A DNA stretch of 64,000 bases from Janthinobacterium sp. (GCA_031431155.1 JANPCW010000204.1:2461-66460); one strand, 5' to 3'. Positions 3,123-57,084 are shown, numbered from the stretch's first letter. Notes: a model not told the origin generated them from the letters alone. A program made the numbers and translations.

Positions 3123-3573
3123 TGTTTGCTCCAAGATTTCGAGCGGTTCGATGGCGAAGCCCCCCCTACCCCCCAAGCAAAGGAAGTAGTGAAGGCGTCA
3201 ATGTTGCTCCTGAGTTTCAGAGTCGGACATAGACGACCCGCGACCGGCTTTGCAGCCACCCTTTCGGGCTTCCATCTGTCTCGCGGGTAAGCCCCGACAG
3301 TTCCGCACATGGATTGCATGGTTGCCTTTCGGCAGCGGTGTCGAGGAAAGAAAAAACCCCCAAGGGTTCCGGCTTTCCTGCTGGCACAGTACCCACTGAA
3401 GGGCTTGAAAGCCGAAGCCGTTGGGGGCTTCGAGTCGTGTGCCAGCATCGACGGAACGGATGTTAGCACATCACCATGGCAGGCCGCAAGTACCCTTTGA
3501 ACTGCGCCCCGCCGGCCCTGACCGACCGACCCCTTGCGGGTTGGGGCGCAGATCAAAAAAGTCTGGCGCCGCG
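3123..3573 (-). promoter_or_regulatory. about 450-bp non-coding, highly structured region carrying a conserved 21-nt box
   Basis: No credible ORF is present. It contains a 9-bp inverted repeat (3380-3388/3438-3446) and several GNRA-type hairpins (minus-sense CCCGAAAGGG and GCCGAAAGGC). The box GACGGAACGGATGTTAGCACA at 3450-3470 recurs at 52680-52700. Confidence 0.4.
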
Positions 3574-3588: not shown

Positions 3589-3912
3589 CACCTTGACCGG
3601 ATGTGCATGCGTCTTGACTGACGCCGCTGGCCTATAAACCGGCGACCCGTCTGGATGCATCGTTTGGCGTATCAGGCCATCCTTGGCCGCCAACAATGAC
3701 AGCGGCCCCCAAGCCTTGTGCGATGCCGGCTGCGTCTTTGCGACGGCGCGAAACTGCTCCATCGTCATCGTGGAGTGCCCTTGCGATTTTCGGATCAGCA
3801 ACCATGCTCGAAGCTCATTCACGACCTCATGGCGCCATTCTGGAGCAAACTCGATGGCAAGCTGCATCCCGCGTTCTTTAGCCTCGCGGCCTGCCGTTGC
3901 GTCTAGCGTCAT
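3574..3912 (-). CDS. hypothetical protein
   Basis: This is the ORF 3574-3990 with the start at MTLDATAG. That start overlaps the stop of the HTH gene (ATGA at 3909-3912). Confidence 0.55.
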   Translation of the reverse strand: MTLDATAGREAKERGMQLAIEFAPEWRHEVVNELRAWLLIRKSQGHSTMTMEQFRAVAKTQPASHKAWGPLSLLAAKDGLIRQTMHPDGSPVYRPAASVKTHAHPVKVWCIA

Positions 3913-4097
3913 TCCAGCACCTTCTTGACCGCCAGCAGAGTCTCCAGGCCGGGGTTTGCGACGTGCCCGTTCATAAATTTGCTGATCCACGAATAGGACA
4001 CGCCAGACGCATTTGCGACCCTTACCCAGTCGCCTTTGGAGCGCTTGAGCAGCGCCTTGACCGCCTTGTCGAGTCGAACGGGCTTGCTTGGGGTCAT
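3909..4097 (-). CDS. Cro/CI-type helix-turn-helix transcriptional regulator
   Basis: It is a 62-aa protein with an HTH-like segment VANASGVSYSWISKFMNGH. It is the first gene of a leftward operon at a divergent promoter region. Confidence 0.65.
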   Translation of the reverse strand: MTPSKPVRLDKAVKALLKRSKGDWVRVANASGVSYSWISKFMNGHVANPGLETLLAVKKVLE

Positions 4098-28700: not shown

Positions 28701-31700
28701 ACGTGGCTCGCCAGATCGACAAAAGCGTCGTGCGAATAGTTCAGGTGGTCCTGGTCCTCTTTGGCCTTGACATAGGTGCCGAAGCCGATGTCGGCAAACG
28801 AGAAGCGTGTTTTTACACCCTCCGGGGTAACGTCTTTGCCTTCTCGAAGTTCTGGTCCATCGCGCACAACGATGTCCAAGCGCGGCGGGATCATCTGCGC
28901 GTTGCGCGTCGGCAGGGCGATGGTTTTCTCGTTCTCGATCAGGTGTTTTGTCCACTCTGATTTGGAGCGAAGCTGCTGGAAGTCTCTGTCCACTGGCCGC
29001 CAGATTTTGCTGTTGACAACCGCCAAGCCCTTGTCGTTCAACAAGCTGCTGTAGAAGCGTTGTTCGGCGTCGTGCTCTTTTTCTTTTGCCGCATCGACGT
29101 AGCGTTCATCGAATTGCTCGGCGGCCTCTTTCACGGATGACTTGCCTTGCGCAAACTCGATCAGCGCACGAACCTTGCCGACGTACTCGGCGGCCACGTC
29201 CTGGAGCCACTTGATGCGATAGGCGGAGTCAGATTGGAACTTGTCGCGGTCCTCTGATGTCAGGTTGCCTGGATACCTGTCGCCCTCAAGCATGTAGTCG
29301 GTGTTGCTCTTGTCGCTATTCCTCCACGCGGAATTTCCCAGCCAAAAATACGACTTGTCCAGCCATTCCTTGAAGGTTTCGGTGTTGCCGCGAATGTGCT
29401 CAATGTAGAGCCGGAAGCCTGGGCTCACGCCATCCGGGAGCAATGGCTCGAACAGGCTGGCCCGCGCAGTGGCGCGCTCGATCTGCGCCCATGCTGTGGT
29501 CGCGTCGCTCTCGTCGGCTTTCATCTGGTCGCGCAACTGCTCGTACCAGCGGCGAAGATCGACCCCGGTGTTCTCCAGCTTGTTGACTGGCACCCCTTCG
29601 TACCACGCATTGCCTTCGGTGGTTTTCATCCAGCGGCGGCCGGCTTTGTACCCAAGCATGCGCGATGGCATTTCGCCGCCGTGCATCGTGCTCTTGGTCT
29701 TGCCTCTGAGCGCGTGGTCCCACCCAGACGTGAATGCCACTTGCTGCTCGGGCGTCAGCACCGGGTCGATGCCCTTCATGGCGTCGTCGATGGCGCCCTG
29801 GCGGACTTCGGGCTTGCGGTGTTTCTGTTTTTCCAATTCGGCCTGCTTCACCTTGATCTTCTGTTCTGCGACTTTGACGAGGCGCTGAATCTGGAACGGC
29901 GCCAGCTTCGTGTCGCCAAGCAACTCCGTGACGCGGGCGATCAGTTCCTCGCGCGACTTTCCAACCATGTCTGGGTCGTTCGCCAGCGCGTTGAAAACTT
30001 CCGACTGCTTGATGCGCTTGGCCTTGGGCGTGTTGTCCTCTGCGGCCGGTGGCTTGGGTGTCGGCGGCGCTGGCTGGGTCTTGCTTGGCTCTGCCTTTTT
30101 CGGCGACCGCACCTTTCCTTGGATCACTGGGTCAAGCTCGTCCCATGGCGTGTTTGAGAACTGGCGGATTTGGTCGCCATCAACATAACCGGCATCGCGC
30201 AGCATCTTGGCTCGCACTGGCACTGCGGCTGCATCCCATCCGTCTTTGGTGGCGTCTTTCCCGGCAGGCTCCTTGGGCGGCTTTTGCGGCTCCGCTATCG
30301 TTCCTCCGCCACCAGTTCCGGTTGGTGGCGGCGGAGTCCCCGGCTTTGTCCATGGCATCATTCCGGCCCCTGGCGGATCGTCCTCGGTCCCCGGCTCGGT
30401 TTTGTCTTTGGGTGGCATGGCGGCCCCGCCGGCCGACGTAGATTCGCCGCCAATGGTTCCGCCGCCTTGTGCAGGTGGTGCTACCGGGCCGCTGCCTGAG
30501 ACACCAGTTCCACCCGCCGTTCCTGCGCCTGGCGTTTGCGGTCCCGCGCCAGGAGCATTGCCGCCACCTGGATTTCCAAGTCCTCCGGTGGGGGTGGGTG
30601 CTTGTCCGGGTGGCTGTTGCGCTTGGCCTTGCTGGGCTTCTGTTTTTTTACCATGTGCATCGCCCTTCGTTGTCGGAATGATGTTTTTTGCGACCGATGA
30701 CGGGCCTACAATAGGCGTCGCGGGTGGCGTTGATGCGTCACCCGCGACTGGCACATCATTACTGGTTGGAGTAACAGCATGCTTACTGTCAAGTGTAGTT
30801 GGTGCGGCGCCGCCGTCACTAGGCACCCGTCCCTCATTCTGAGGGCGCCCAACGTCTTCTGCTGTCGTCGATGTTCTGGACTGCACAGGGCTTCTGCCAC
30901 GCCCATCGTCAACAAAACCAGCGGCGCCTTTTATCCCTGCGTTCGTTGTGGCAAGGCCGTCTATAGGCAAGTCTGCCGAATGAAGACCCTCAAGGAGGGC
31001 AGGGTGTTTTGCGGCCACGCTTGCTACCAAGCGCATGATCGAGGAGGAGGCATCAACTCCGATGGTTACCGCGTTATCACCGTCGCCCCGTACACCACCA
31101 AAATCGAGCATCGATGGATCATGGAACAGCATCTCGGGCGTGAGCTTTTGGCGACTGAGCACGTTCACCACATCAACAGGGATAAGCTTGATAACCGCCT
31201 TGAGAACCTCGTCGTTCTTTCCGATAGCGAGCATATGTCGCTTCACAGAAGACACCGCCTCACTATCGATGACATCAAACCCTTTGTTTCCTGTGGTCGT
31301 ACTTCCACCGAAATCGCTGTTGCCTTCGGGGTTGACCGATCCACCGTCACTCGCTTGCTTCACTCCAATGGACTGATTGCCAGTCGAATCAGTCGGCAAT
31401 AAAGCGGTCGGCAGCAGTCCTGCTGCGATCTTGGAAATCGGGCCGACAACGGGGATGCCATTCCCAACGGGCGGCATCGGGCCAAGCTGCGGCCCATTGT
31501 TGTATCCCATCGCGCCAGCCGAAAGCGGCGGGGCGGGCGGCGGGATGACGGTGTTGGTCGCTGCCGTGATGGGGCCTGAGGGCGGCGGGATGGCGGCGAA
31601 GCCACCACCGAGAACGGCCCCAGCCAGAGCGCCCTCGGTCACGGCGCGAGCCATGCCCTCGGTGATTGGTTTGCCTTCGGCCCAGTTCTTCGCCGCCGAT

Positions 31701-46385: not shown

Positions 46386-47396
46386 CTATGTCGCGCTATC
46401 CCACTTAACCACCCTGCTATTCTTGCTGGAGTTGGCTGCCACCAGGGGATGGACGAGGCCAAACCCGCCGATGTAGTACCACGCGATGCCACGATCCCGG
46501 CCGAAGTCGGACGGAATCTTGCCGCGCATTTCCTCGGGGACCGCAACACCCTCGGCCACCGTGTCGTTGCCCAAGAAGAAGGCCCAGCTTGACAGGGCGT
46601 TGTTCCATGGGTCGGCGGTGTCGGTGCTGGCATTGAACGTCCCTGAGTCAGCGGCGCCGCCCTTGGGAATGTTCGTCTGCTCGACAAACCGGGTGCTTTC
46701 GTAGCGCCCAACCTCGCCGTTCAGAATGAACTGGAAACCCGCGTCGGTGTACTGCTTGATCTGCTCAAGCTCGTCCTTGAAGGGCCTCCAGGTCGAGACG
46801 TGGCTGATTGCCACATAGTCGTCGGCCATGTAGGGCGGAATGTTCCGTTCCTTCATCAGGTCCACGATCAACTTGACGTGAGCCTTGCCCAGCGCGACGT
46901 TGTTCGTGGTGACGGACGTGCCGCTGGTGGACAGGACCAGGGAGGTCGTGGACGTGCCGGCCGTTGGCGTCACGCGCAGAGGCGTGGCGTTGAACTCGGT
47001 GAAGGCGGCCACGTCGAACGCTTTTTTGGCGTCGTTCTTGAGCACCTTGTCGATGATTTCCTTGATCGGCTGCTCGGACAGGTCATCGAGCTTGCCGGTG
47101 TAATCGACCGAGTTGCCGTACTCGGTGATCGTCATGGTGCCCTGCGTGATCGTGAAGTTCGTCTTGGGCATGACGGTGGTTTCCGTCAGGGTCGTCCCGC
47201 GAGTCGTCACGTCCGAATAGACGTTCCAGTGGAAGGTGTCGCCCTTGCCCTTGCCTTGGACGGCAGCGTCTTTGATGTCCGCAAACTGGCGGAACTTGAC
47301 GGTGGGCTGGACAGCATGCCGAAGCACTTTGGACAGGTTCGGCGACCACATATAGCCGCCGAGTGAATTGGTCAACCAGACTTGTTGAGCAGGCAT
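46386..47396 (-). CDS. major capsid protein (HK97 fold)
   Basis: This is the 336-aa reading from MPAQQVWLT, with a GGAG 6 nt upstream; the ORF-track TTG start at 47408 is less likely. The sequence pattern and its position after the scaffold gene are typical of HK97-family capsid proteins. Confidence 0.75.
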   Translation of the reverse strand: MPAQQVWLTNSLGGYMWSPNLSKVLRHAVQPTVKFRQFADIKDAAVQGKGKGDTFHWNVYSDVTTRGTTLTETTVMPKTNFTITQGTMTITEYGNSVDYTGKLDDLSEQPIKEIIDKVLKNDAKKAFDVAAFTEFNATPLRVTPTAGTSTTSLVLSTSGTSVTTNNVALGKAHVKLIVDLMKERNIPPYMADDYVAISHVSTWRPFKDELEQIKQYTDAGFQFILNGEVGRYESTRFVEQTNIPKGGAADSGTFNASTDTADPWNNALSSWAFFLGNDTVAEGVAVPEEMRGKIPSDFGRDRGIAWYYIGGFGLVHPLVAANSSKNSRVVKWDSAT

Positions 47397-47426
47397 TTGA
47401 ATCTCCAATCAAAAAATGGACGATGG

Positions 47427-48404
47427 CTATGCCGGGAGTCCTCTTGCCAGCCGCATTTCCTTGATGACATCGGTTGCGGTTGGCTCAACTACTTCGGGCG
47501 TTGCCGCCTTTGTTCCAAGGCCTCGCACGTTGTCGATGCGCGCCTTGCGGTCCAGCTTTGTCTGGCGATCCGTGGTCGGGGCTTCGTCGGCGATCTTCAT
47601 GCCCTTGCTTTTGGCCCAATCTCGCATCGCAGTGGCCGCCGTTTCCAATGATTCGGAGAATGACTTTCCCGTCTTCTTCGCCGCATCGAAATGCTGGTCT
47701 GCCATCTGCGCGAGGTATGGGTCATCCACAATGAACTTGTTGTTCACCGCGAAAGCGTCCAATGCACTCTCGTCTTCCATCTGCTGTCGGATTTGCGGCG
47801 TCAACTGGGCAGTCAACTGGGCAATGTCGAGGGTGGGATTTTCCGTCCGCCTCTGACTCACCAACGCGACCAACCGATCAACCGCAGCATCCTCGTCGCC
47901 CTCGAACATCGCTTTGACAGTGGCTCTCACCGTGTCTTGAAGCTCTGCCCCGCTGGCGTCTTGGGCGCCATTCTGCACTGGTTTCGGTGTTTCAGCAACA
48001 GGCTGTGGTGCGGACGCTATTTTTTGTGCTTCGGCCAGCAAACGCTCGGCATCGGCGCGCGCGCGGGCACCTTCCTCAAAGCGCTTGTCGGCCGCCAACC
48101 CTTTTTGGTAGGCGCGTTGCATTTCCGCAACAGTGACTTGGCTCTCGACGCCATCGACCTTGACGGTGACGAGCGTGTCCTCCTTGGCAAAAATATTTGC
48201 CGGCTTCTCTGTCGGCTCTGGCGCCAGTTGCGCGGCCAACTGATCGGGCTCGACGCCGCGCTCTTGGTCGTGCGAGTCGGACATCGCATCCATCGCCAGC
48301 AGGCGCGGATTGATGGGCGGGTCTTTCGGGGCTTCGCCACCTGGAAGGCTGTCGTTTCCTTCTGGTGACACGCCCGTTGGGGTAGCGTCTTGTTCGAGTG
48401 GCAT
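47427..48404 (-). CDS. scaffolding protein
   Basis: The protein is acidic, helical and Ala/Glu/Gln-rich, and the gene lies between the portal-region genes and the capsid gene. Confidence 0.6.
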   Translation of the reverse strand: MPLEQDATPTGVSPEGNDSLPGGEAPKDPPINPRLLAMDAMSDSHDQERGVEPDQLAAQLAPEPTEKPANIFAKEDTLVTVKVDGVESQVTVAEMQRAYQKGLAADKRFEEGARARADAERLLAEAQKIASAPQPVAETPKPVQNGAQDASGAELQDTVRATVKAMFEGDEDAAVDRLVALVSQRRTENPTLDIAQLTAQLTPQIRQQMEDESALDAFAVNNKFIVDDPYLAQMADQHFDAAKKTGKSFSESLETAATAMRDWAKSKGMKIADEAPTTDRQTKLDRKARIDNVRGLGTKAATPEVVEPTATDVIKEMRLARGLPA

Positions 48405-48429: not shown

Positions 48430-48738
48430 TCAGTCGCTCATGTTTGCGAAGGATCGCTCCGCGTTCTCCCCCTCTGCGACGGCCTGCGCCATCCAGATGA
48501 GAAAGTTCTCTGCGCAGCGTGCATCGTTTTGCAGCTTGCGAATCTCTTTGGGGTTGTCCGCGTCGGCGTCCTTGAGTGCTTCAAGGGCCTGCTCGCGTTC
48601 ATCGTTCGCCCTGCCGGTCAGATACCGGCCCAGGGTTGAGTTCATAAACGCCTGGGCGTCCAGACCGAAGGCAATCGTGCCTCGGATCGCGGTCAGGTCG
48701 GCCTTCTCGACTTCTGCGTCTGGCTCTTGTTCATCCAT
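48430..48738 (-). CDS. hypothetical protein
   Basis: ORF track entry that overlaps the end of the portal gene by 8 nt. Confidence 0.55.
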   Translation of the reverse strand: MDEQEPDAEVEKADLTAIRGTIAFGLDAQAFMNSTLGRYLTGRANDEREQALEALKDADADNPKEIRKLQNDARCAENFLIWMAQAVAEGENAERSFANMSD

Positions 48739-50920
48739 TGGAGTCTGGCCTTACGGTTTGAATGCCCTGGTTCGCCCCAACGCCTGGGCTGGCTGGCGCC
48801 GCCGGCAATGCTGGCGTGAGCGGCGTCGTGTCTCCGGTCGCCTGCGCCGTCTCGATGCTCGTCTTGGGGTTGAACATCGGCTGGAGCGTCATGCCCGTCG
48901 CGTCAGCCATGGGCTGCGGGAAATTCGGGTCAATCGCAGCCGGATTGGGCGGGACATATCCAGCGGCCTTCATCAACTCGTCGGCGATAGGCGACACCTG
49001 TGGTGTGGCGGCAACAACCTGCGCCGCTTGCATGGCGGCGAAGATCGAGCGCATACTTTTCTCGACCTGGGTGGCGATGTTGTCCTTGGACTTGGTGCCG
49101 ATGTTGGCAATCTCCGCGTCCAGCTTCTCGATCTGCTTGGCGAGCATTTCGGGGGACACCTTTTGCTCCAGAGCCTTCTGCAACTCCTGGATTTCGGCCT
49201 GCGCAGCAAGCAGCGCCGGGTCTTGCGTCTCATCGAAGAAGCGGTCGCCGTCTTTGTAGCCCAGCTTGCCGAACAGTTCCTTGATGACTTCGCCGATGTC
49301 CAGGCCATATTTCTCCAGAACGCCGTCGGCCAAAAGCTCCTTGAGGTTCTTCATGCCCAGCATGAAGTTGGCGATCTGCTCTTGCGGGCTCGTCGCTCCA
49401 ATACCCACGTTCACGTTGAGCGTGAGTTCCCTGGACAACAGGTCGTCGGTCACGGCGTCCACGCCGAAGCGCTGGAACAGCTTGGCCTTCTTGCCGGCCA
49501 GCGCCAGGACCACGCTATCAGTTTCGTAGTGTTGCTCCAGCAAGATCATCTGCGACAGGACGGGCTCGACCCACGTCTCGACAAACGTGCGCAGTTGGTA
49601 GCTCGATACCTGCGATGCGTTGCCGGTCAGGATGTTCATGCCGCCGACGGTTTCGTTGAGCTTCCGATTGCTCTGAACCGATGACGGTGAAAACGTCCCC
49701 GCCACTTCATCAAAGTCCACGTTCAGGCGGTCCTGCTCCTGGTATGCAGAGGCCGTCACGTCGGGCGTGTTGATGACCAGCACGTCCTTCTCCGGGTCGT
49801 CCATCATGGTCACACTGCTGGGCGTGTTGCGCGTGAGGCTTCGGACATCAACTTGCTTGTTGCGCTTGACGAAGTAGCGCTTGTTCATGGCGAACTTCAC
49901 GTTGTCGATGCGCTGGTTTGCCACCTCGTTGATTTCGGACGCGAGGCTCTTGGTCACGTCGGCAACGCCTTCGGGATAGACCTTGTGCGTCTCGATCATG
50001 CAGAACCCCATGGCATAGGGGCGCCGGCCGTGCCAGTACGCGGCCTTGAGCGGCTCGGGGTCGGTGAGCATGTGAAACGTGCCCAGCGTGTAGAACAGCA
50101 AGTCCTGCCCGTCAACGGCTATGATGTTGCGGTGGACCCAGACAACCGTGAAGTCGCCGACGGACTGACTGACCTCCTTGGAGTCGGTGCGACCCCGCTC
50201 GCGCGTAAGCCGGGTGGAGTCGGAGTACAGCTTGGACGCCTGCAAGATTTGGGCGTCGGTCATAGTCTTCCAAGCTCGCGTACCCTCGCTCTTGATCGGA
50301 GTCCTGCGCATGCGGGCCTTCACGTCTTTGACGTACATCGGGATCAGTTGAATCAGGTACGGGCTGGTGTTGATCGGGTCGGACCACTCAGCAGCGGGGT
50401 CGAGCCGAAAGTTCTCCAGGGGAATCAACTCGATGCAGGGCTTGTCAACCCCGCGCTCGGCGTCGTAGTCCCAGTATTGGTAGGAGAGGCAAGCTCCCAG
50501 GGCCTGCGCGTCTTGGTACGCCCCCATCGAAATCAGGAACCATGGGACGGACTTCTTGAGCCGGTAGTTGATAAGCTCCATGACCACGGCGGCTGACGCC
50601 TGCTGAATTTCGTCGGAGTCATCCTGGGCGGAAATCGACAGCACGTCCTTGGCAGAGAACAGCGCCTCGGCGGCGATAGCCTCGTTCTTCCTGATCGTGG
50701 AGCGCGTCTTGGGCCGGTACAGCTTGGAGCGTCCCCGGTAGGCATCCGAGTGGTACTTCGAGCCGGCAGGGTGGACGCCCTGGAATTGCCGAAGGTTGGA
50801 CTCGATCTTGGCCCTGATGCTCGAATCGAAATAGGTGGTTGAGGCCGTGAATGCTTCGCGGGCCATCGCCAAGTAGTCCGTCGTGTCCTGGGTTTCTTCC
50901 TGCTCGATTGCGGTTTCCAT
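48731..50920 (-). CDS. portal protein
   Basis: This is a 729-aa ORF in the position downstream of terL. The pattern resembles a T7-type head-tail connector. Confidence 0.75.
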   Translation of the reverse strand: METAIEQEETQDTTDYLAMAREAFTASTTYFDSSIRAKIESNLRQFQGVHPAGSKYHSDAYRGRSKLYRPKTRSTIRKNEAIAAEALFSAKDVLSISAQDDSDEIQQASAAVVMELINYRLKKSVPWFLISMGAYQDAQALGACLSYQYWDYDAERGVDKPCIELIPLENFRLDPAAEWSDPINTSPYLIQLIPMYVKDVKARMRRTPIKSEGTRAWKTMTDAQILQASKLYSDSTRLTRERGRTDSKEVSQSVGDFTVVWVHRNIIAVDGQDLLFYTLGTFHMLTDPEPLKAAYWHGRRPYAMGFCMIETHKVYPEGVADVTKSLASEINEVANQRIDNVKFAMNKRYFVKRNKQVDVRSLTRNTPSSVTMMDDPEKDVLVINTPDVTASAYQEQDRLNVDFDEVAGTFSPSSVQSNRKLNETVGGMNILTGNASQVSSYQLRTFVETWVEPVLSQMILLEQHYETDSVVLALAGKKAKLFQRFGVDAVTDDLLSRELTLNVNVGIGATSPQEQIANFMLGMKNLKELLADGVLEKYGLDIGEVIKELFGKLGYKDGDRFFDETQDPALLAAQAEIQELQKALEQKVSPEMLAKQIEKLDAEIANIGTKSKDNIATQVEKSMRSIFAAMQAAQVVAATPQVSPIADELMKAAGYVPPNPAAIDPNFPQPMADATGMTLQPMFNPKTSIETAQATGDTTPLTPALPAAPASPGVGANQGIQTVRPDSNG

Positions 50921-50923
50921 GGA

Positions 50924-51274
50924 TTACCCCTTGTCGGCTTTGAGACGGCCAGCGAAATCGGTCGGCAGTGCTGATAGATGGTCGAGGTTGAGCTTGCCCG
51001 TGGTGAGACGGTAGCGATCCAAAAGCTCGCCCCCAGCGCGCATCACGCGCAGCTTGAACTCGCTCGCTGAGAACACCGTATCGAGCCTGATGCGAAAGCC
51101 CCAGTTGCCCGACAGCGCAAGGTTGCGGATGTCGGCAAAGCCGGTGGTCTTGCCATCCACTGCGACCGCCCAAAGGTGGCCTGGATACTTGGTGTGAAGC
51201 GTGTCGGCGATGTCTTTCGCCATCACAAGGTCATTGGCCGCGATCTGCGGGGAGTCGGTGACAAGTTCGCTCAT
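50924..51274 (-). CDS. hypothetical protein
   Basis: Start at MSELVTD, overlapping the upstream stop (ATGA at 51271-51274). Confidence 0.55.
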   Translation of the reverse strand: MSELVTDSPQIAANDLVMAKDIADTLHTKYPGHLWAVAVDGKTTGFADIRNLALSGNWGFRIRLDTVFSASEFKLRVMRAGGELLDRYRLTTGKLNLDHLSALPTDFAGRLKADKG

Positions 51275-51414
51275 TGGTCGTACTCCGGTTCGCACTCTCT
51301 GCGCTCAAGCGTGGCCTTTTCCCAGTCGGAAAGCCAGGACCACTGCTCGGGCGTGTAAAGAGTCTTTATGCTCTCGGGCAGAGCATCGTACTGCTCGTTA
51401 TGACCAGAAGGCAT
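51271..51414 (-). CDS. hypothetical small protein (47 aa)
   Basis: Start taken at MPSGHNEQYDAL. The longer ORF would overlap the HNH gene. Confidence 0.45.
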   Translation of the reverse strand: MPSGHNEQYDALPESIKTLYTPEQWSWLSDWEKATLERRECEPEYDQ

Positions 51415-51422
51415 ATGGTCTT

Positions 51423-52076
51423 TCACAACAGCAGTCCTCGTTCCCGCATGAAATCGGCGGGGTGTTTTGCACCTTTTTGGCCGTTGCATCGCTGACGAAG
51501 AAGCTGAATATTGTCGTCGGTGTTCGACCCGCCCAACGCGAGCGGCATGATGTGGTCAAGATGGTATTTCGCTCCAAGGGGTTGCGCGCAGCATGCGCAT
51601 TTTCCTTGCTGCAATATGAACAGCCTGTCGGAGAGGTTGCGCGAGAGAACGCCGCCAGCCAACCGACTGCGGCGATTCTGCGTTTGCAGCCTAGCCCATT
51701 CTGGGTTTTCTTTGCGTCGCCGCCGTGTATTGGCCGTTACCTTGGCGCGGTTGGCTATGCCCCATGCGGCATTCTTTGCGCGAACTTTGTCCTTGTTGGA
51801 GGAAGCCCATTTGGAAGTCCTGAAATTACACTTTTCTGGGTTGGCTTTTTGCCATGCTGCTGTGAGCGCTTTTACTCTATCAGGATATTTGCTCCTATAT
51901 GCTGCCGATCTGGTTTTTACAATATCCTGGTGCTCCAAATAGTACGTGGCATTGCGTTCTTTCAGCCGCTCCGCGTTTGCGACTCTCCATGCTGCGCCGC
52001 GCGACTTGGCGCATGCCTTGCAGTCACCTTTTTTGTTTCGGTCGGTGCTGCCGCATTTAATGCACGGTTTCATCAT
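51423..52076 (-). CDS. HNH endonuclease
   Basis: The C-terminal core is CACCAQPLGAKYHLDHIMPLALGGSNTDDNIQLLRQRCNGQKG. The N-terminus has a Cys4 zinc finger and repeated W..AN.E motifs. Confidence 0.85.
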   Translation of the reverse strand: MMKPCIKCGSTDRNKKGDCKACAKSRGAAWRVANAERLKERNATYYLEHQDIVKTRSAAYRSKYPDRVKALTAAWQKANPEKCNFRTSKWASSNKDKVRAKNAAWGIANRAKVTANTRRRRKENPEWARLQTQNRRSRLAGGVLSRNLSDRLFILQQGKCACCAQPLGAKYHLDHIMPLALGGSNTDDNIQLLRQRCNGQKGAKHPADFMRERGLLL

Positions 52077-52264
52077 GGTTGCGGAGGATCGGTGTTGTAG
52101 TGATTGCGCTCGTAAAACTTTCTGTTATTTGAAAAGTGGTAGGCCGCGTCATAGGGCTGCTTGATGACATCAATGCCATCCATGGCCTCGGCTGCCGCGA
52201 CGACTTCGGCCCAGAGCTTTTCGCTGGTTTTGACGGTGGATTGTGGTCCGAGGGGCATGGTCAA
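52073..52264 (-). CDS. hypothetical small protein
   Basis: ORF track entry that overlaps the start of the HNH gene. Confidence 0.5.
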   Translation of the reverse strand: MTMPLGPQSTVKTSEKLWAEVVAAAEAMDGIDVIKQPYDAAYHFSNNRKFYERNHYNTDPPQP

Positions 52265-52702
52265 TCTCCTTCGCGCGTGATTGTAGGCGCGTCAGATGCC
52301 CATAGGAAGACCCCGAGGCTCCCGACCTGACCCGGGTTTTGGAGCCTCTTTCGGCCATCCTTGCGGACTGCCGCTCGCTGAACGTCGCATTCGATTGTCA
52401 GGCGCCCGTCCGTGGGCCAAACGCTGCGTCGGTGTGCATTGCCTGTTTTTGTGGTCGCTGCGAAACGCCACGGCGCCGGGGTCTTGAACTGAAGCGTCAT
52501 CGGTACTTGGGTGCGGCCCCGACATTGGCCCATAAGCTGCGTCAACTGGCGCCCTGACCTCGGAAACGCAAAAAGGGTCTTTCTGCTGCGTTTACTTGGT
52601 GCGACCACACCACCCTTTCGGGACGTAAACGCATGAGAAAGACCCCTCATTCGTGTTGTCGCAGTGTGGTCGCACATTTGACGGAACGGATGGTAGCACA
52701 GT
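52265..52702 (-). promoter_or_regulatory. 438-bp non-coding structured region immediately downstream of terL
   Basis: No credible ORF is present. The 21-nt box at 52680-52700 also occurs at 3450-3470. There is a 12-bp perfect inverted repeat (52599-52610/52664-52675), a nested terminator hairpin, and further 8-bp stems such as GAGGCTCC/GGAGCCTC. Confidence 0.45.
52570..52645 (-). terminator. candidate intrinsic terminator with a composite stem
   Basis: On the minus sense, GGGUCUUUCU (52645-52636) pairs with AGAAAGACCC (52584-52575), and UUUUU (52574-52570) follows. Inside are the stem GCGUUUAC/GUAAACGC and a CCCGAAAGGG hairpin. Confidence 0.4.
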
Positions 52703-55414
52703 TTATGATCCATCGGTGAAGGTTTCAGGCTCAAGTGTACGCTGGTCAATGATGATTGGTCGAACTGGGTCCATGTCGTATATTCTGCTCGCACTATCCA
52801 TGAAGTCCTTTTTGGAACTGAACGGGTAGGTCAGGTATTCTTCGAGGAACCCCTTGTTCAGCGAGTACAGGTTCCCCTCATGGTCCTTGGCCTTGGTCGG
52901 CTTGAAGATGCGAAACGACTGCCCTTCTTCGCGGATTTTCTTCTGATTGGCCGTCTCGCCATCGGTTATGGCGGCCAGATAGTACCGGCCGGCGGCGAAA
53001 TCGGGCTGGAGACGCTGCACCCGGTCATCCTTGGCCGTGGTCCCGTCATGGGTCCAGGACAACTCGACAATCTCGAAGGAATCCTTGATCGCCTCCATCT
53101 TTTCCTCGAAATACTCCAGGTCCGACTGCATGCCGTACTTCTCGTAGCCGACCCGCACCATCTGGACCCCCACCGTGTTGACCCAGCGCTTGCGCAGCAG
53201 GTAAAGGTGCTCCCAGCGCTCCTTGAGCCCCATCTTGTGCCGAAATCCGTCGAGCAGATACTTGTTGCCACCCGAGTCGATCCCGGTTACAACCATGGCC
53301 GTGTTGTCCGAACCCTTCTTTTTCGAGTTCGCGGGGTCCACCGTGATGTAAATGTTCAGCGTCGCAGGGCGGATGTCGATGAAGCGCAGCCATTCCTTCT
53401 TGAACATCGCCTCGTTCCCGGCCGCCGGGTTCAAAAGCTGCTGGCAGGCAATCGTCGCCGGCCCCTGCTTCTGCTTCTTGTCCCCCCAGGCCTCGGGCGT
53501 GAGCAAAACCGGCTTGCCGTCCGCCGTGCCGTCATCGGTCGCCGGGTACAGCCTGACCTTGAGCGCCCCCTTGTCGATGATGTCCTGGTAGGTGTCGCCG
53601 AAGTGATACCGAGTCCCCGAGTGCCAAGCGCGCAGCGACCCATCCTCGCCCCGAGCCCCAAGGTTGTCCGACAACTCCCATGCGTCCGTCGTCTTCTTGA
53701 CCTGTTCGGGCGTGTTCACCGACGCCAGCGTCACCACGTCGTCATAGACCCGCAGCCGGTAGTGGGCGCCGGTAGGCTGCCCGTCCACCAGACCATGGGC
53801 CTCAATCGTCGCCTCCTTGGGGTTGGACTGCCTCTTGACAGTCAGCCCCTTTTCCTCCGACCATGTGGGGCTCTCGCGCTGGGGTTCGGCGTAAAAAATC
53901 TGTGGATAAGTCCTCTGCAACTCCCGGTTCGTCTCCAACTCCAACTTGATCTGGAGCATGAACTTTCGGGCAATCGGCTTGGTGTGCGAGAAAATCCCAA
54001 CCGTGACCTCCGGGTCGATGATGATTTCCTGGATGATCCCGGCGAACGTGATGATGGTGCTGTTGTGCGTGGTGACCATCTGCCGGCCGGCAAGGTACAG
54101 GCCGTCGGGGCGCTCCACCTGGATGCAGGACATTGGCACGGGCGCGATGGGCGTGCAATCCACTATGTAGCGGCGCGGGTGTGGCCGTGCGCCGGGCTTG
54201 GCACGCGCGGCCTTGCGCGGCAACCGGAAAGGGTTGGCTTCCTGATATGCCTGGAACGCCACTTGCCAGACCGGGCCGAACTCGTTTTTGTACTCGTAAA
54301 CCGATGGCTTGAGTCCCAGGCCGGTAGCCAACTCATAAACGTCGTGCACAAGACGCTCGTTGGTATTGGTGAAAGTCGCGGTGCCTCGGGTATTGCAGTG
54401 ACCGTCGGTGTCCATGAGTCCGCGCAACAGTTCCATGCGCTGGCGCGTGCTGCCACGCTGGTAGAAGACCGGGATGTGCTTGTCGCCCAGGATGCGTAGG
54501 CCTCGAAGCAGCGGTCGAAGCCCGTAAACCGTTCGCGTGACGGCATTTGGCTTGCTTGGAGCGGCGTCTGGGCCTACGATGTAGCCTTCTGCCTTGATGG
54601 CGTCGAATATCGCCTGGTCCTCGCCGGTTATGCGGCCATCGGCCGCCGATCCATCGCCAAGCCACGCGCCCAACGTGTACGGCTCGATGGGCAGCAAAGC
54701 ATCGGGCATGTTCAGCGGGGCATTGACCGGGATAGCCAGGCGGTTGTCAGCCGTGTGCTGGTGCGAATGAATATCGCGCGTGCTCAGTGTCACTGCTTCG
54801 CGGTACTGGCGCCCATTGGATGTGCCTGCAATGCGCTTGCGTGTCTTGCGCTCGACATCCCACAGATGGTCGGCGCCGGCCTGCATCACAGTCCCATCGT
54901 CAAAGCTGAGTTCAAAGGCATCGCCTTCCGTGAAGACCTCTGTGCAGGCCACAACGCGGGTCGGCATGCCATCCGGCCCGTACACCCAGTCACCATGCCT
55001 CAATGCTCCATGGGTGGTCCAGCCGCTTGGCGTTGGCACCGGCTCGTCAGTGCGCAGCATTTTGTAGTGTTCCCGAGCCCATAGGTCCAGGTATCCATCC
55101 GGGTCGAGTTCAACCTCGCGGCAGCGCGCGTAAATCCAGGGATGGACGGCATCAGAGCGGTGCAGCAGCTTCGTCAACAGGTAGAACCTGTCGTGGCGGC
55201 CCAGCCACCCCACCGCAATCTCCCCGAAACTGACCTCCAACTCGGCCCAAAGCTCCCGGATGCCAGTAAACGGCGCCGCCAGCAGCAACGGCTTGAACCG
55301 ATCCAGCACCGCCAAACGCTGCGCCAGCGTCAGTTCTGGAGCCTTCGGAGCCTTCTCGACCTCCTTCTTGGGTCGCCCACGCTTCTTCACGGGGGCATCA
55401 ACGTCAGCTTCCAT
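52703..55414 (-). CDS. terL: terminase large subunit (intein-containing)
   Basis: The Walker A region LWAREHYK|STIITFAG is split by an intein. Walker B is LRVYDDV. The nuclease half contains YITVDPA and MVVTGID. Confidence 0.85.
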   Translation of the reverse strand: MEADVDAPVKKRGRPKKEVEKAPKAPELTLAQRLAVLDRFKPLLLAAPFTGIRELWAELEVSFGEIAVGWLGRHDRFYLLTKLLHRSDAVHPWIYARCREVELDPDGYLDLWAREHYKMLRTDEPVPTPSGWTTHGALRHGDWVYGPDGMPTRVVACTEVFTEGDAFELSFDDGTVMQAGADHLWDVERKTRKRIAGTSNGRQYREAVTLSTRDIHSHQHTADNRLAIPVNAPLNMPDALLPIEPYTLGAWLGDGSAADGRITGEDQAIFDAIKAEGYIVGPDAAPSKPNAVTRTVYGLRPLLRGLRILGDKHIPVFYQRGSTRQRMELLRGLMDTDGHCNTRGTATFTNTNERLVHDVYELATGLGLKPSVYEYKNEFGPVWQVAFQAYQEANPFRLPRKAARAKPGARPHPRRYIVDCTPIAPVPMSCIQVERPDGLYLAGRQMVTTHNSTIITFAGIIQEIIIDPEVTVGIFSHTKPIARKFMLQIKLELETNRELQRTYPQIFYAEPQRESPTWSEEKGLTVKRQSNPKEATIEAHGLVDGQPTGAHYRLRVYDDVVTLASVNTPEQVKKTTDAWELSDNLGARGEDGSLRAWHSGTRYHFGDTYQDIIDKGALKVRLYPATDDGTADGKPVLLTPEAWGDKKQKQGPATIACQQLLNPAAGNEAMFKKEWLRFIDIRPATLNIYITVDPANSKKKGSDNTAMVVTGIDSGGNKYLLDGFRHKMGLKERWEHLYLLRKRWVNTVGVQMVRVGYEKYGMQSDLEYFEEKMEAIKDSFEIVELSWTHDGTTAKDDRVQRLQPDFAAGRYYLAAITDGETANQKKIREEGQSFRIFKPTKAKDHEGNLYSLNKGFLEEYLTYPFSSKKDFMDSASRIYDMDPVRPIIIDQRTLEPETFTDGS
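54062..55060 (-). mobile_element. intein (333 aa) with a LAGLIDADG homing endonuclease, in the terL P-loop
   Basis: It spans aa 119-451. It ends in VTTHN followed by a +1 Ser. LAGLIDADG motifs are LGAWLGDGSA and LRGLMDTDGH. Block B is ADHLW and block F is PMSCIQV. Confidence 0.8.
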
Positions 55415-55556
55415 TTACCAGACCCCTTCTTCCAAAAATTTTTCCGGCGCCGCGCAGAAATGGGAATAGTAACGGTACTCTTTTGGAACCGTTACCCCCA
55501 CCACTCTTTCCTGGGATTTTTTTTGGCGGCGGCGGATCGAGGCAGGGGCGATCATT

Positions 55557-55585
55557 GTTATAGGCAGAGGGGCTAAAGCCCCCAA
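55557..55585 (-). promoter_or_regulatory. weak candidate sigma70-type promoter upstream of terL
   Basis: On the minus sense there is TTGGGG (55585-55580), a 17-nt spacer and TATAAC (55562-55557). Confidence 0.2.
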
Positions 55586-55843
55586 GTCGCGGTCGCGGTC
55601 GGGCGCGCGGGACGGGAAAGCATGCTTCGTCCGGCTCGACCCACCCACCCCAGGTCCATCCTGCCCAGCACGCGCGCATCGTGCCTTGATCGAGTCGCGG
55701 CGCGCGATGTCATGCCTCATATACCCTGCTGTCCATGGTGTGTGTGGCCCTGGCCATGCTGTCCGCCCCTGTTCTGTCGCGCCTGGAACAGTCGGAGGGT
55801 GTAAACCCGCGTTTTCCCGCACTTCCTGTCCTGTTTGCGACCA

Positions 55844-56641
55844 TCAGGCCTGTATTTGGCTGGCCACCTGGGGCGCTGGAGCCGCCTTCTTGCCCGTCAA
55901 CTCCTCGATCCTGCGCTCGAACTTGAGCCGCAAGGCCTCCGCCCCAGCCTCGAAGTCCTCAAAGATCACATGCGCCGACCTGCCCAACGGTGGCGGTTCT
56001 GGTGCCACTGCCTGCCCGATGTTGAATGCCGTGCGCTCAATCTCCACCAGCTTCCCGAGGGCGTCCGCCAGCGTCTTGGCTGTCACTGCCCGATTGCCCA
56101 GGTTTGCAGCACGTTTGACCATCAACATAATGTCCCGTTTTTCGTCCATTCCCATGGGCTCCCCGTCAACTGGGTCAGCCGTCAGAAGGGCGTAGGCTCG
56201 TTCAAATACGTCCCGATTGAGGGTGATGGCCTCTAGCTCCTCAAAGAGCGCCTGCACGATTCCTAGTGCCTTTCCGGCATGCTGCCTATGCCCTCGGATC
56301 ACTTCGGCGATGGCTCGGGCGCTGGCCTCGACTACCTCGGCCTCCTTGGCCGGTGTGACCATTCCTTTGCCTTTTCTGACATTATTGGCAACATGCTCGG
56401 TCAGAAGTACCCTAGCCCGCTCCTCAACTCGTTCGCGCAGGTTGCGAGTCCAGCCGTAGCGCTTGGCTCGGTTCAGGATCGCGCTATGGGTCAGGTTGTG
56501 CTGCGCCGCTAGGTGTCTCAGGGTCTTGATGCCTGCCCTGTAGTCCGCTTCGATGGTGTCCCAATCCAGCGGCGCTGTGGGCCTAGCCTTGCGTGGGCGC
56601 GGTTGTTCTGGGGTTTTGGCCTTATGCAATGTTTTGGGCAT
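55844..56641 (-). CDS. terS: terminase small subunit
   Basis: The N-terminal HTH is IEADYRAGIKTLRHLAAQHNLTHSAILNRAKRYGW. It is the first gene of the late operon, upstream of terL. Confidence 0.7.
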   Translation of the reverse strand: MPKTLHKAKTPEQPRPRKARPTAPLDWDTIEADYRAGIKTLRHLAAQHNLTHSAILNRAKRYGWTRNLRERVEERARVLLTEHVANNVRKGKGMVTPAKEAEVVEASARAIAEVIRGHRQHAGKALGIVQALFEELEAITLNRDVFERAYALLTADPVDGEPMGMDEKRDIMLMVKRAANLGNRAVTAKTLADALGKLVEIERTAFNIGQAVAPEPPPLGRSAHVIFEDFEAGAEALRLKFERRIEELTGKKAAPAPQVASQIQA

Positions 56642-56769
56642 GTTGGGCGTTGCTTATGAGCAAATTATCTACTCTAGCGTAGAAATCTCTTGCGTTATCC
56701 AGTCTAAAGCGTACATTACGGGGTGTCGAAAGACATTCTATCAACCCTTCACTGACCTGGAGTAACCCC
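56642..56769. promoter_or_regulatory. AT-rich divergent intergenic region (likely promoters for terS leftward and early genes rightward)
   Basis: This is the only markedly AT-rich stretch between two divergent operons. One example is TTGCGT, a 16-nt spacer and TACATT on the plus strand. Confidence 0.35.
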
Positions 56770-57084
56770 ATGAAACACACACCTACACCTTGGACATTTG
56801 CCAGCAAAAATGTTTTCCCGCTGCGCATCCAGTCCGATGATGACCTGCCCACGCACATTTGCGAGATGATTACCGTCAACCCGGCATTATTTGCCGATGC
56901 CGCCCTGATCGTCCGCGCAGTCAATAGCCATCAAGCCCTTGTCGATGCGTTGGATGCCATTGCCTGTTATGACAGCAACACCGCACTCACGTTGATGCTG
57001 GCCGGCGAAATCACGGCGGCCATGGACGAAATCCGCAACATGCAGACCATCGCGCGCGCCGCCCTTACCAACACGATGGACTGA
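56770..57084 (+). CDS. hypothetical protein
   Basis: ORF track entry with a GGAG upstream. Confidence 0.6.
   Translation: MKHTPTPWTFASKNVFPLRIQSDDDLPTHICEMITVNPALFADAALIVRAVNSHQALVDALDAIACYDSNTALTLMLAGEITAAMDEIRNMQTIARAALTNTMD

What the first reader, a model, noticed from the sequence alone, without database searches (positions are those of the whole stretch)
52265..52702. 438-bp structured non-coding region after terL with a terminator/antiterminator-like architecture and a conserved 21-nt box
In an otherwise gap-free operon, terL is followed by 438 nt without a plausible ORF.

In minus-sense order the region contains:
- the box UGUGCUACCAUCCGUUCCGUC (52700-52680);
- arm A, GUGCGACCACAC (52675-52664);
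- a composite hairpin, with outer stem 52645-52636/52584-52575, inner stem 52632-52625/52595-52588 and a CCCGAAAGGG tetraloop hairpin, followed by UUUUU.

The perfect 12-nt complement of arm A (52610-52599) lies inside the terminator loop. Pairing of arm A with it would compete with the terminator or form a pseudoknot with it. More 8-bp stems follow downstream.

Inference: this is a cis-acting RNA switch. It could be processive antitermination of the put/nut type, an attenuator or a stable ncRNA. It would control read-through from the terminase genes into the portal and head genes.
Basis: partly seen in the sequence, partly recalled or inferred. Interest (0 to 1): 0.6.

Follow-up and report, generated by a model that had tools for sequence, protein, structure and literature searches.

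The report
Two-copy phage promoter–RNA–terminator cassette
The gap after the phage's large terminase gene is an optional 445-base insert; its first 135 bases (a promoter-like 21-base box, a folded RNA that can pair in two ways, and a strong terminator) recur in the phage's early operon with different letters but the same shape, so it is probably a small transcription-control unit of a kind known from other phages, though it fits no described RNA family and is untested.

Summary
The box, arm A, the compound hairpin with U5, and the 12-nt complement of arm A inside the hairpin loop are all at the stated coordinates. No ORF in the gap has coding-like codon usage.

New findings:
- The window lies in a complete 67.4-kb phage genome from freshwater sediment.
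- A second module at 3344-3470 (minus strand) has the same box (20 of 21) and the same architecture. Both have a 73-nt Y-shaped terminator hairpin and an upstream arm that pairs with its loop. Stem sequences differ: 12 of 19 stem pairs changed on both sides and one broke.
- A model built from copy 1 alone finds copy 2 (E about 1e-6). Without the box, copy 2 is still the best non-self hit.
- The box contains an extended -10 promoter motif (TGnTAnnAT). The genome has only four of these, and one sits before terS.
- The whole gap (52265-52709) is absent from a relative whose flanks are about 95% identical. In all closer relatives found, orf61 follows terL directly.
- There is no Rfam match and no homologue elsewhere.

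Best reading (0.42): a moron-like promoter, short RNA and conditional terminator cassette. A put/nut-type RNA box is less likely. Expression is untested.

The parts
52265..52709 (-). Whole optional insert (IGR1) between terL and orf61
   Evidence: A contig of run X5 joins 52264 to 52710 with 3 letters between (skips 445). Its flanks are about 95% identical. In the closest relatives orf61 starts 3-24 nt after the terL stop.
52680..52700 (-). 21-nt box, copy 1. It contains the extended -10 motif TGCTACCAT (52698-52690). Predicted transcription start near 52683-52682.
   Evidence: TGnTAnnAT occurs only 4 times in the 67.4-kb genome, against 12 expected.
52664..52675 (-). Arm A (GUGCGACCACAC)
   Evidence: Perfect 12-nt complement of 52599-52610 (I2). 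Duplex energy -22.5 kcal/mol. 0 of 20,000 shuffles reach 12 nt.
52653..52664 (-). Degenerate tandem copy of arm A (CUGCGACAACAC, 10 of 12)
   Evidence: It can pair with A' at -15.6 kcal/mol.
52574..52646 (-). 73-nt Y-shaped terminator hairpin: outer stem 11 bp, inner stem 8 bp, the CCCGAAAGGG hairpin, and arm A' in the junction
   Evidence: -40.5 kcal/mol. It is one of the two strongest hairpin plus U-run sites on the minus strand. Fold.
52599..52610 (-). Arm A' (GUGUGGUCGCAC), inside the terminator's junction loop
52570..52574 (-). U5 tract of terminator T1
52450..52458 (-). Third copy of the arm-A core (GCGACCACA), 110 nt after the terminator
   Evidence: D6, I4. Pairs with A' at -18.0 kcal/mol.
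52265..52569 (-). Rest of the insert: about 300 nt, non-coding, function unknown
   Evidence: Folds no better than shuffles (z = 0.17). Codon log-odds are negative.
3450..3470 (-). 21-nt box, copy 2 (20 of 21 identical). It contains TGCTAACAT.
3438..3446 (-). Arm A of copy 2 (GCUGGCACA; 10 bp with the preceding U)
   Evidence: Complement of 3380-3388. 6 of 20,000 shuffles reach this length.
3357..3429 (-). 73-nt Y-shaped terminator hairpin of copy 2. A' lies at 3380-3388 and U6 follows at 3351-3356.
   Evidence: -42.0 kcal/mol. Fold z = -3.6. It aligns full-length to the copy-1 model at 35.8 bits, E = 1.2e-6.
56735..56743 (-). Probable terS-terL promoter (extended -10, TGATAGAAT), in a 128-nt divergent gap
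   Evidence: It is the same promoter class as the box, and is the upstream source of transcripts that reach T1.

Best explanation
IGR1 is an accessory, moron-like insert. Its first 135 nt are a self-contained transcription unit, and a diverged paralogue sits in the early-left operon at 3344-3470.

Proposed mechanism:
1. The 21-nt box acts on DNA. It is a sigma-70-type extended -10 promoter (TGnTAMCAT) together with its discriminator and start region, spanning about -17 to +4.
2. Transcription from the box, and from the upstream terS promoter, produces an RNA with arm A followed by a 73-nt three-way-junction hairpin and a U-tract, which is an intrinsic terminator.
3. A' emerges before the 3' halves of the terminator stems. 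A can therefore capture it first and hinder closure of the terminator, allowing read-through. If A stays free or is blocked, the Y-shaped hairpin forms and a short RNA of about 110 nt is released.

The cassette would thus make a small structured RNA and also set how much transcription continues into orf61 and the portal and head genes. For copy 2 the downstream genes are the replication and nin-like genes.

What is shown and what is inferred:
- Shown: the sequences, folds, paralogy, optional presence and promoter motif.
- Inferred: promoter activity, termination, the switch itself and any regulator.
For: - Paralogue with the same architecture. A model built from copy 1 alone aligns copy 2 end to end (35.8 bits, E = 1.2e-6). 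The outer stem keeps 10 of 11 pairs with 8 double-sided changes. The inner stem keeps 8 of 8 with 4 double-sided changes.
- Without the box, copy 2 is still the best non-self hit in 128 kb (15.9 bits).
- Both hairpins are 73 nt long and are the two strongest hairpin plus U-run sites on the minus strand.
- The arm/loop complement is 12 nt and 10 nt. It occurs in 0 and 6 of 20,000 shuffles.
- Nascent transcripts ending at A' fold with A:A' paired. At full length the terminator fold (-50.2 and -57.5 kcal/mol) and the fold with A:A' forced (-45.8 and -47.4) are close alternatives.
- The box holds TGnTAnnAT. The chance of this in a 21-mer is about 0.001. The genome has only 4 such motifs against 12 expected. 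One lies in the divergent gap before terS.
- The only difference between the two boxes falls on the third -10 position, which by general knowledge of sigma-70 promoters is the least constrained.
- The insert is optional, and relatives carry small protein-coding genes at the same junction.
- A strong terminator inside an essential late operon has to be bypassed somehow. No other promoter was found in the remaining 300 nt.
Against: - There are no expression data of any kind. The one metatranscriptome run laid on the region did not cover it.
- Only two members exist, both in one genome. The 'compensatory' changes therefore cannot separate divergence under selection from two hairpins of similar design.
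- There is no -35 element, and the -10 hexamers match the consensus at only 4 of 6.
- The ten box positions after the -10 are identical in both copies, which a promoter alone does not explain.
- The box-to-arm-A pairing that could act as an anti-antiterminator is good in copy 2 but only 4 bp in copy 1.
- The 215-300 nt between terminator and next gene are unexplained, and are long for a leader.
- The host and its RNA polymerase are unknown.
Confidence: 0.42

Rival explanations
1. Stand-alone small-RNA genes only. The box is the promoter, and the RNA of about 110 nt is a stable trans-acting or decoy sRNA. Its 5' arm and loop pairing is just part of its compact pseudoknotted fold. Read-through of its terminator is incidental, or is handled by an unrelated antitermination system of the phage.
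For: - It shares the promoter motif and strong terminator evidence.
- The naive pseudoknot sum (-60 to -62 kcal/mol) is the most stable state if it is sterically allowed.
- Optional presence is typical of accessory phage sRNA genes.
- Short promoter-to-terminator phage RNAs with regulatory roles are known, for example StxS (PMC7547250).
Against: - No target sites for A or A' were found elsewhere in the phage.
- No antiterminator gene was recognised among the proteins scanned.
- A terminator of -40 kcal/mol placed ahead of about 43 kb of essential structural genes would be costly if it were not built to be bypassed.
Confidence: 0.22
2. The box acts on RNA. It is a single-stranded recognition site in the polycistronic transcript for a phage or host protein or RNA (nut, RAT or put-like in spirit). 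Binding there frees or blocks arm A, and so decides between the terminator and the A:A' form at both an early and a late site. This is essentially the first reader's reading.
For: - All 21 nt are conserved, including 10 nt beyond the -10-like part, while everything around them has diverged.
- The box is pyrimidine-rich and predicted unpaired in copy 1.
- Copy 2 sits after the cro-like gene and before the replication genes, the position of lambda nutR/tR1.
- In copy 2 the box can pair with arm A.
Against: - The extended -10 motif would then be a coincidence of about 1 in 1000.
- There is no boxA/boxB or two-stem put structure.
- Rfam gives no match.
- Box-to-A pairing is not conserved in copy 1.
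- The element is absent from near relatives, so it is not part of the lineage's core regulation.
Confidence: 0.15
3. No regulatory role. The two gaps are relics of recombination or mobile DNA in a genome crowded with homing elements. The hairpins are ordinary terminators brought in with the inserts. The box is a leftover or a DNA site, for example a nuclease or recombination target.
For: - The insert is dispensable in a close relative.
- The junction is a hot spot for unrelated inserts in relatives.
- The genome carries inteins and several HNH genes.
- Imperfect direct repeats GATGGA and GAAGGA flank the insert.
- The last 300 nt show no signal of structure.
Against: - Preservation of a 20 of 21 box beside fully diverged but isomorphic structures argues for selection on both.
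- The arm/loop complement was kept through changes on both sides in two copies.
- No endonuclease gene lies inside either gap.
Confidence: 0.14
4. A self-splicing intron or other ribozyme of about 445 nt, inserted at the very end of terL.
For: - The insertion point lies inside the last codons of terL.
- The insert has several GNRA-type loops.
- An HNH gene lies nearby.
Against: - No group I, group II or small-ribozyme match appears even at E up to 10.
- The region after the terminator is not stably folded.
- An internal strong terminator is unexpected in an intron.
- Copy 2 lies 100 nt from the nearest ORF.
Confidence: 0.03

Closest known systems
Lambdoid late unit PR' - short 6S/StxS RNA - tR' (PMC7547250)
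   Same: A promoter is followed within about 100-200 nt by a strong intrinsic terminator, ahead of late genes. The short terminated RNA can itself be a regulatory sRNA. Read-through is needed for late gene expression.
   Different: - There, read-through depends on protein Q loaded at the promoter. Here no Q-like gene was recognised, and the RNA carries its own competing pairing.
- There are two copies (early and late) instead of one.
- The unit sits after the terminase genes and is optional.
Morons of lambdoid phages (promoter - gene - terminator inserts between genes that are adjacent in relatives; own knowledge: Juhala et al. 2000, Hendrix et al. 2000)
   Same: It is inserted between two genes that abut in relatives. 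It has its own terminator, a promoter-like element, and the same orientation as the operon.
   Different: It carries no protein gene. About 300 nt of unexplained sequence follow the terminator.
Classical terminator/antiterminator attenuators and riboswitch expression platforms (summarised in PMC8191782, introduction)
   Same: Two mutually exclusive folds control a single intrinsic terminator, and the antiterminator forms first during transcription.
   Different: - The antiterminator strand does not overlap the terminator's 5' stem. It pairs with the junction loop, which is pseudoknot topology.
- No leader peptide, aptamer or known ligand domain is present.
- No Rfam family matches.
HK022 putL/putR RNA (PMC9378689)
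   Same: Two paralogous cis-acting phage RNA elements of about 70 nt share some sequence, one per operon. putL contains a -10-like NANNAT element.
   Different: - put RNA is two stem-loops in a V shape that bind the RNA polymerase beta' zinc-binding domain, and it lies well upstream of the terminators.
- This module is one Y-shaped hairpin that is itself a terminator.
- The conserved part here is a linear box 5' of the structure.
Multi-copy prophage sRNA families with a conserved box, own promoter and terminator (STnc100/PasD, Rfam RF02076)
   Same: Several diverged copies occur in one phage. Each has a promoter-like box, a folded RNA and a terminator.
   Different: No match to RF02076 or to any Rfam model. 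The fold and the host range differ.
P4 CI RNA / P1 c4 immunity RNAs (own knowledge; Rfam C4 family)
   Same: A loop sequence in a structured RNA is complementary to sites both upstream and downstream on the same transcript. Here A' matches arm A and the third copy at 52458-52450.
   Different: - There is no Rfam C4 match.
- The downstream site is found only in copy 1 and is not near a ribosome-binding site.
- There is no evidence of processing.

Membership tests
Intrinsic (Rho-independent) terminator | G+C-rich hairpin followed directly by a U-tract on the transcribed strand | tested here: met
   The hairpins score -40.5 and -42.0 kcal/mol and are followed by U5 and U6 on the minus strand only. 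The stems are unusually long and branched (73 nt).
Intrinsic (Rho-independent) terminator | Releases transcripts at the U-tract | not testable with these tools
   The metatranscriptome run X7 did not cover the region.
Sigma-70 extended -10 promoter | TGn directly upstream of a TAnnnT hexamer | tested here: met
   TGCTACCAT and TGCTAACAT lie inside the boxes. The motif is rare in the genome and also occurs before terS.
Sigma-70 extended -10 promoter | Initiates transcription | not testable with these tools
   There are no 5'-end data, and the host is unknown.
Terminator/antiterminator attenuator | An alternative pairing that forms earlier and is incompatible with the terminator | tested here: inconclusive
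   A:A' is the minimum-energy fold of the nascent RNA in both copies. However, it does not share nucleotides with the terminator stems. Incompatibility rests on a topology argument, not on a computation that handles pseudoknots.
Terminator/antiterminator attenuator | A sensor (leader peptide, aptamer, or protein or RNA site) that chooses between the folds | tested here: inconclusive
   No Rfam aptamer matches. A 35-codon ORF from the GTG in the box has non-coding codon usage. The box is a candidate site only.
HK022 put RNA | About 70-nt RNA of two stem-loops just downstream of an early promoter, with no terminator inside it (PMC9378689) | tested here: not met
   The module is a single three-way-junction hairpin ending in a U-tract. 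Copy 1 lies in the late region after terL.
Lambda nut site | boxA (CGCUCUUA-like) followed by a short boxB hairpin with a GNRA-like pentaloop | tested here: not met
   By eye, the sequences contain no boxA-like sequence. The element after the box is a 12-nt arm, not a boxB hairpin.
Any Rfam 15 family (including group I/II introns, C4, STnc100, HEARO, ribozymes, riboswitches) | Covariance-model score at or above the gathering threshold | tested here: not met
   There were 0 matches in the whole window at gathering thresholds. At E up to 10 in 51900-53100 there were only two miRNA-model noise hits.
Moron | An insert between genes that are adjacent in related phages | tested here: met
Moron | Carries a protein-coding cargo gene between its promoter and terminator | tested here: not met
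   No coding signal was found.

The most novel reading that the evidence does not exclude
A 'loop-capture' attenuator. This would be a class of conditional terminator in which a 5' arm pairs with the junction loop of a three-way-junction terminator and blocks its closure topologically, without overlapping the stem. The identical 21-nt box would be the shared handle through which one phage or host factor co-ordinates an early and a late operon.
Probability: 0.15. Interest if true: 0.7.

Novelty: new variant of a known kind. Interest (0 to 1): 0.4.

Why it matters
If the reading holds, the cassette shows that phages pick up non-coding regulatory units (promoter, folded RNA, conditional terminator) by the same insertion route as protein-coding morons.

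It would also offer a compact, portable terminator design whose antiterminator works by capturing a loop rather than by competing for a stem strand. With two isomorphic but sequence-divergent copies in one genome, it is a ready-made test pair for mutational and compensatory experiments.

If it proves to be only a pair of accessory sRNA genes, it is one more unnamed phage RNA family from an uncultured phage, and of modest interest.

Tried and rejected
Searches for the box or the region elsewhere:
- Rfam, whole window at gathering thresholds and the local region at E up to 10: nothing. tRNA and tmRNA: none.
- blastn of the region against GenBank phages: no match.
- Nucleotide search (blastn, nhmmer) of the gap, a box scan with up to 6 mismatches, and the copy-1 model in the 47 IMG/VR relatives: nothing. 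The copy-1 model in the 80 metagenome relatives: nothing.
- Exact box scans. The metagenome collection gave 0 hits. The viral collection gave 6 hits, mostly inside continuous-looking sequence and none followed by the hairpin/arm architecture. The genome collection gave 48 hits, about the number chance predicts.
- Among those 48, six Acidobacteriaceae MAGs share a 20-nt identity at one orthologous non-coding site. I could not show this to be more than chance.
- The copy-1 model in 150 genomes related to the MAG: only self.
- Our-findings look-up by sequence: nothing.

Host link:
- The MAG is not acidobacterial by protein identity.
- There are no portal homologues in 200 genomes of its family, nor in 300 genomes of the Acidobacteriaceae family.

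Searches from neighbouring genes:
- Neighbours of copy 2 (the 138-aa and 70-aa genes) in viral contigs: one distant hit and none.
- orf61 in the 5.8-billion protein set: only itself.

Coding readings of the gaps:
- The long ORFs read the box in different frames and are unrelated.
- A leader peptide starting at the GTG in the box was rejected on codon usage.

Other checks:
- The terS-terL gap as a third member: it has no box, no terminator, and z = +1.2.
- TAnCATCCG shared with the early-left promoter: the 8-mer count in the genome equals the chance expectation.
- The RNA run X7 and the parts of runs without cover gave no information on expression.
- Literature search for the P4 seqA/seqB system found nothing usable.
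- I did not build a two-sequence covariance model. MAFFT misaligned the stems, and the model-based alignment also contains the reverse-strand self-hit.

Full report
**Setting.** The window lies in contig C204 of a 4.1-Mb MAG. The contig is 67,590 bp long and has a 138-bp terminal direct repeat, so it is a complete phage genome of about 67.45 kb. Runs that hold it come from freshwater sediment.

The relevant genes, all on the minus strand, are:

| Gene | Coordinates | Note |
|---|---|---|
| terS | 55844-56641 | |
| terL | 52703-55414 | 903 aa, with a LAGLIDADG intein |
| the gap | 52259-52702 (ORF-free stretch) | |
| orf61 | 52073-52258 | conserved small gene |
| HNH endonuclease | 51423-52076 | |
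| orf123 | 50924-51295 | |
| portal | 48731-50920 | SU10-type |
| scaffold candidate | 47427-48404 | |
| capsid | 46386-47408 | |

The terS-terL unit probably starts at an extended -10 promoter, TGATAGAAT (56743-56735). It sits in a 128-nt divergent gap.

**The observation.**
- The 141-nt stretch folds at -50.5 kcal/mol, z = -3.6.
- The hairpin itself is a 73-nt three-way junction. It has an 11-bp outer stem, a 3x3 internal loop, an 8-bp inner stem, the CCCGAAAGGG hairpin, and a second arm that contains A'.
- It is followed by U5 on the minus strand only. No U-run follows the hairpin on the plus strand.
- Arm A and A' are a perfect 12-nt complement. This length was reached in 0 of 20,000 shuffles.

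The gap is non-coding.
- All its ORFs have codon log-odds of -0.24 to -0.54, against +0.29 to +0.33 for core genes.
- No protein-level similarity appears in the first 47 relatives' loci.
- The part after the terminator (about 300 nt) folds no better than shuffles (z = 0.17).

**A paralogue.** The box has exactly one other copy in the phage and in the whole MAG, at 3470-3450 with 20 of 21 identical. The sequence after it is different but the plan is the same:
- an arm (GCUGGCACA, 3446-3438);
- a 73-nt Y-shaped hairpin (-42.0 kcal/mol) with the arm's complement (3388-3380) in the same junction position;
- a small CCC...GGG hairpin;
- U6.

A covariance model made from copy 1 alone aligns copy 2 from end to end (35.8 bits, E = 1.2e-6). 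In that alignment:
- the outer stem keeps 10 of 11 pairs, with 8 changed on both sides;
- the inner stem keeps 8 of 8, with 4 changed on both sides.

A model without the box, run with filters off, still ranks copy 2 as the best non-self hit in the window (15.9 bits, E about 0.08). The arm/loop complement of copy 2 is 10 nt, reached in 6 of 20,000 shuffles. The two hairpins are the two strongest hairpin plus U-run sites on the minus strand of the genome.

With only two sequences, these changes show two isomorphic structures beside one conserved box. They cannot by themselves prove descent with selection.

**Position of copy 2.** It follows a Cro-like HTH gene (3909-4097) and a 138-aa gene. It precedes a 70-aa CxxC ORF, an O-like replication gene and a NinB homologue. 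This is the place where lambda has nutR and tR1.

**The gap is an optional insert.** A DNA contig from another study (run X5) joins 52264 directly to 52710 with three letters between, skipping 445 bases. Its flanks are about 95% identical. Read in minus sense, that relative has ...ACC GAT GGG AGT TGA CC ATG..., so terL ends in D-G-S-stop two bases before the orf61 start.

More distant relatives show the same tight junction.
- In the closest relatives found (up to 78% terL identity), orf61 starts 3-24 nt after the terL stop.
- In others, the same junction holds small, tightly packed protein-coding genes.
- The HNH gene is absent from the first 47 relatives' loci.
- Neither the gap's sequence, the box nor the structure occurs in the 127 relatives' loci, in 150 genomes related to the MAG, or in the public collections scanned.

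**What the box is.** The box contains TGCTACCAT or TGCTAACAT, which fits the extended -10 consensus TGnTAnnAT.
- At this base composition, the chance that a 21-mer holds that motif is about 0.001.
- The genome has only four such motifs against 12 expected, all on the minus strand: the two boxes, one before terS, and one inside a gene.
- The single difference between the boxes falls on the third position of the hexamer, which by general knowledge of sigma-70 promoters is the least constrained.
- With the usual spacing, transcription would start at box position 18 or 19. The box would then span about -17 to +4 and the RNA would begin 6-8 nt before arm A.

Points against a simple promoter:
- there is no -35 element;
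- the ten positions after the hexamer are also identical, which a promoter alone does not need;
- a resemblance to the early-left promoter (TAGCATCCG) is no more than chance.

**How it may work.** For transcripts ending just after A', the minimum-energy fold pairs A with A' in both copies. At full length, the terminator fold (-50.2 and -57.5 kcal/mol) and the best fold with A:A' forced (-45.8 and -47.4) are close. A naive pseudoknot sum would be lowest, at about -60.

A' leaves the polymerase before the 3' halves of the stems, so A:A' can form first. The terminator would then have to wind about 19 bp through a closed 49-53-nt loop. I infer, but did not compute, that this hinders termination.

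A terminator of this strength ahead of about 43 kb of structural genes must be bypassed, and no promoter was found after it. In copy 2 the box can pair with arm A (11 of 12 positions by hand alignment; fold), which would be an anti-antiterminator. In copy 1 that pairing is only 4 bp, so this third state is not a shared feature.

Copy 1 also has two extra elements, neither with a counterpart in copy 2:
- a degenerate tandem copy of arm A;
- a third copy of its core, 110 nt after the terminator.

**Comparison with known systems.**
- The unit works like the lambdoid PR'-6S/StxS-tR' arrangement (PMC7547250) and like a classical attenuator, and it was acquired like a moron.
- It is not a put RNA. 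put is two stem-loops with no internal terminator (PMC9378689).
- It is not a nut site, nor any Rfam family.
- Long-stem terminators are reported to resist processive antitermination (PMC10325885). That would make a built-in bypass more necessary here, but this is only a lead.
- Earlier notes of this scan describe similar optional promoter-RNA-terminator genes in other phages (e1-1909677) and multi-copy boxed sRNA families (STnc100). So the kind is not new. The fold and the loop-capturing arm are.

**Verdict.** The element is a new, two-member, lineage-restricted variant of a known kind of phage regulatory or small-RNA cassette. Nothing about expression has been shown.

Noticed in passing
window 56642-56769: A 128-nt divergent gap. 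A plus-strand gene starts at 56770 (GGAG, 7 nt, ATG), and a minus-strand extended -10 motif TGATAGAAT (56743-56735) lies about 95 nt before terS. The packaging and late operon probably starts here, not further upstream.
   Followed up: partly
window 55415-55843: The 429-nt terS-terL gap. Its only ORF (135 aa, GTG start) has no family match and a codon log-odds of -0.12. The RNA fold is no better than shuffles (z = +1.2). It has no box and no terminator, so it is not a third member of the cassette family.
   Followed up: partly
L065, L074, L075, L078, L095, L102 (Acidobacteriaceae MAGs): A conserved non-coding site about 115 nt upstream of a secreted FecR-domain gene carries GTGCTAMCATCCGTTCCGTC. 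This is identical to 20 nt of the phage box, including the same A/C polymorphism. The total number of 18-mer hits equals the chance expectation, and no host link was found.
   Followed up: partly
L016:4262-4807, L019:6013-6298, L041:847-1132, L030:6326-6559, L018:3442-3707: In related phages the terL/orf61 junction holds one or two small, tightly packed protein-coding genes with their own GAGGA ribosome sites. The junction is an insertion hot spot.
   Followed up: partly
window 51423-52076: The HNH endonuclease gene between orf61 and orf123 has no counterpart in the 47 IMG/VR relatives' loci, and its codon usage is foreign-like (log-odds -0.08). It is a separate insertion from IGR1.
   Followed up: partly
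window 52610-52622 and 3256-3268: A shared 13-mer, CCCGAAAGGGTGG. In IGR1 it is the small hairpin inside the terminator. In IGR2 it lies about 90 nt after the terminator. Its GAAAGGGUG part is complementary to CAUCCGUUC of the box, with one mismatch.
   Followed up: no
window 52400-52450 (plus strand): A hairpin (-17.8 kcal/mol) followed by T5 on the plus strand inside IGR1. It could end an antisense transcript, but no plus-strand promoter was seen.
   Followed up: no
contig C204 ends (L057, L058): The first and last 138 bp of the contig are identical, so this is a complete circular or terminally redundant phage genome of about 67,452 bp. It is by far the longest contig of a fragmented MAG (the next longest is 24 kb), so its binning and its host are doubtful.
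   Followed up: partly
window 24629-32494 (residues about 2260-2610 of this N-terminal piece of the 5,243-aa protein): This segment of the giant virion protein matches the same intein-bearing PHROG families as the terL intein, so it is probably a second intein.
   Followed up: no
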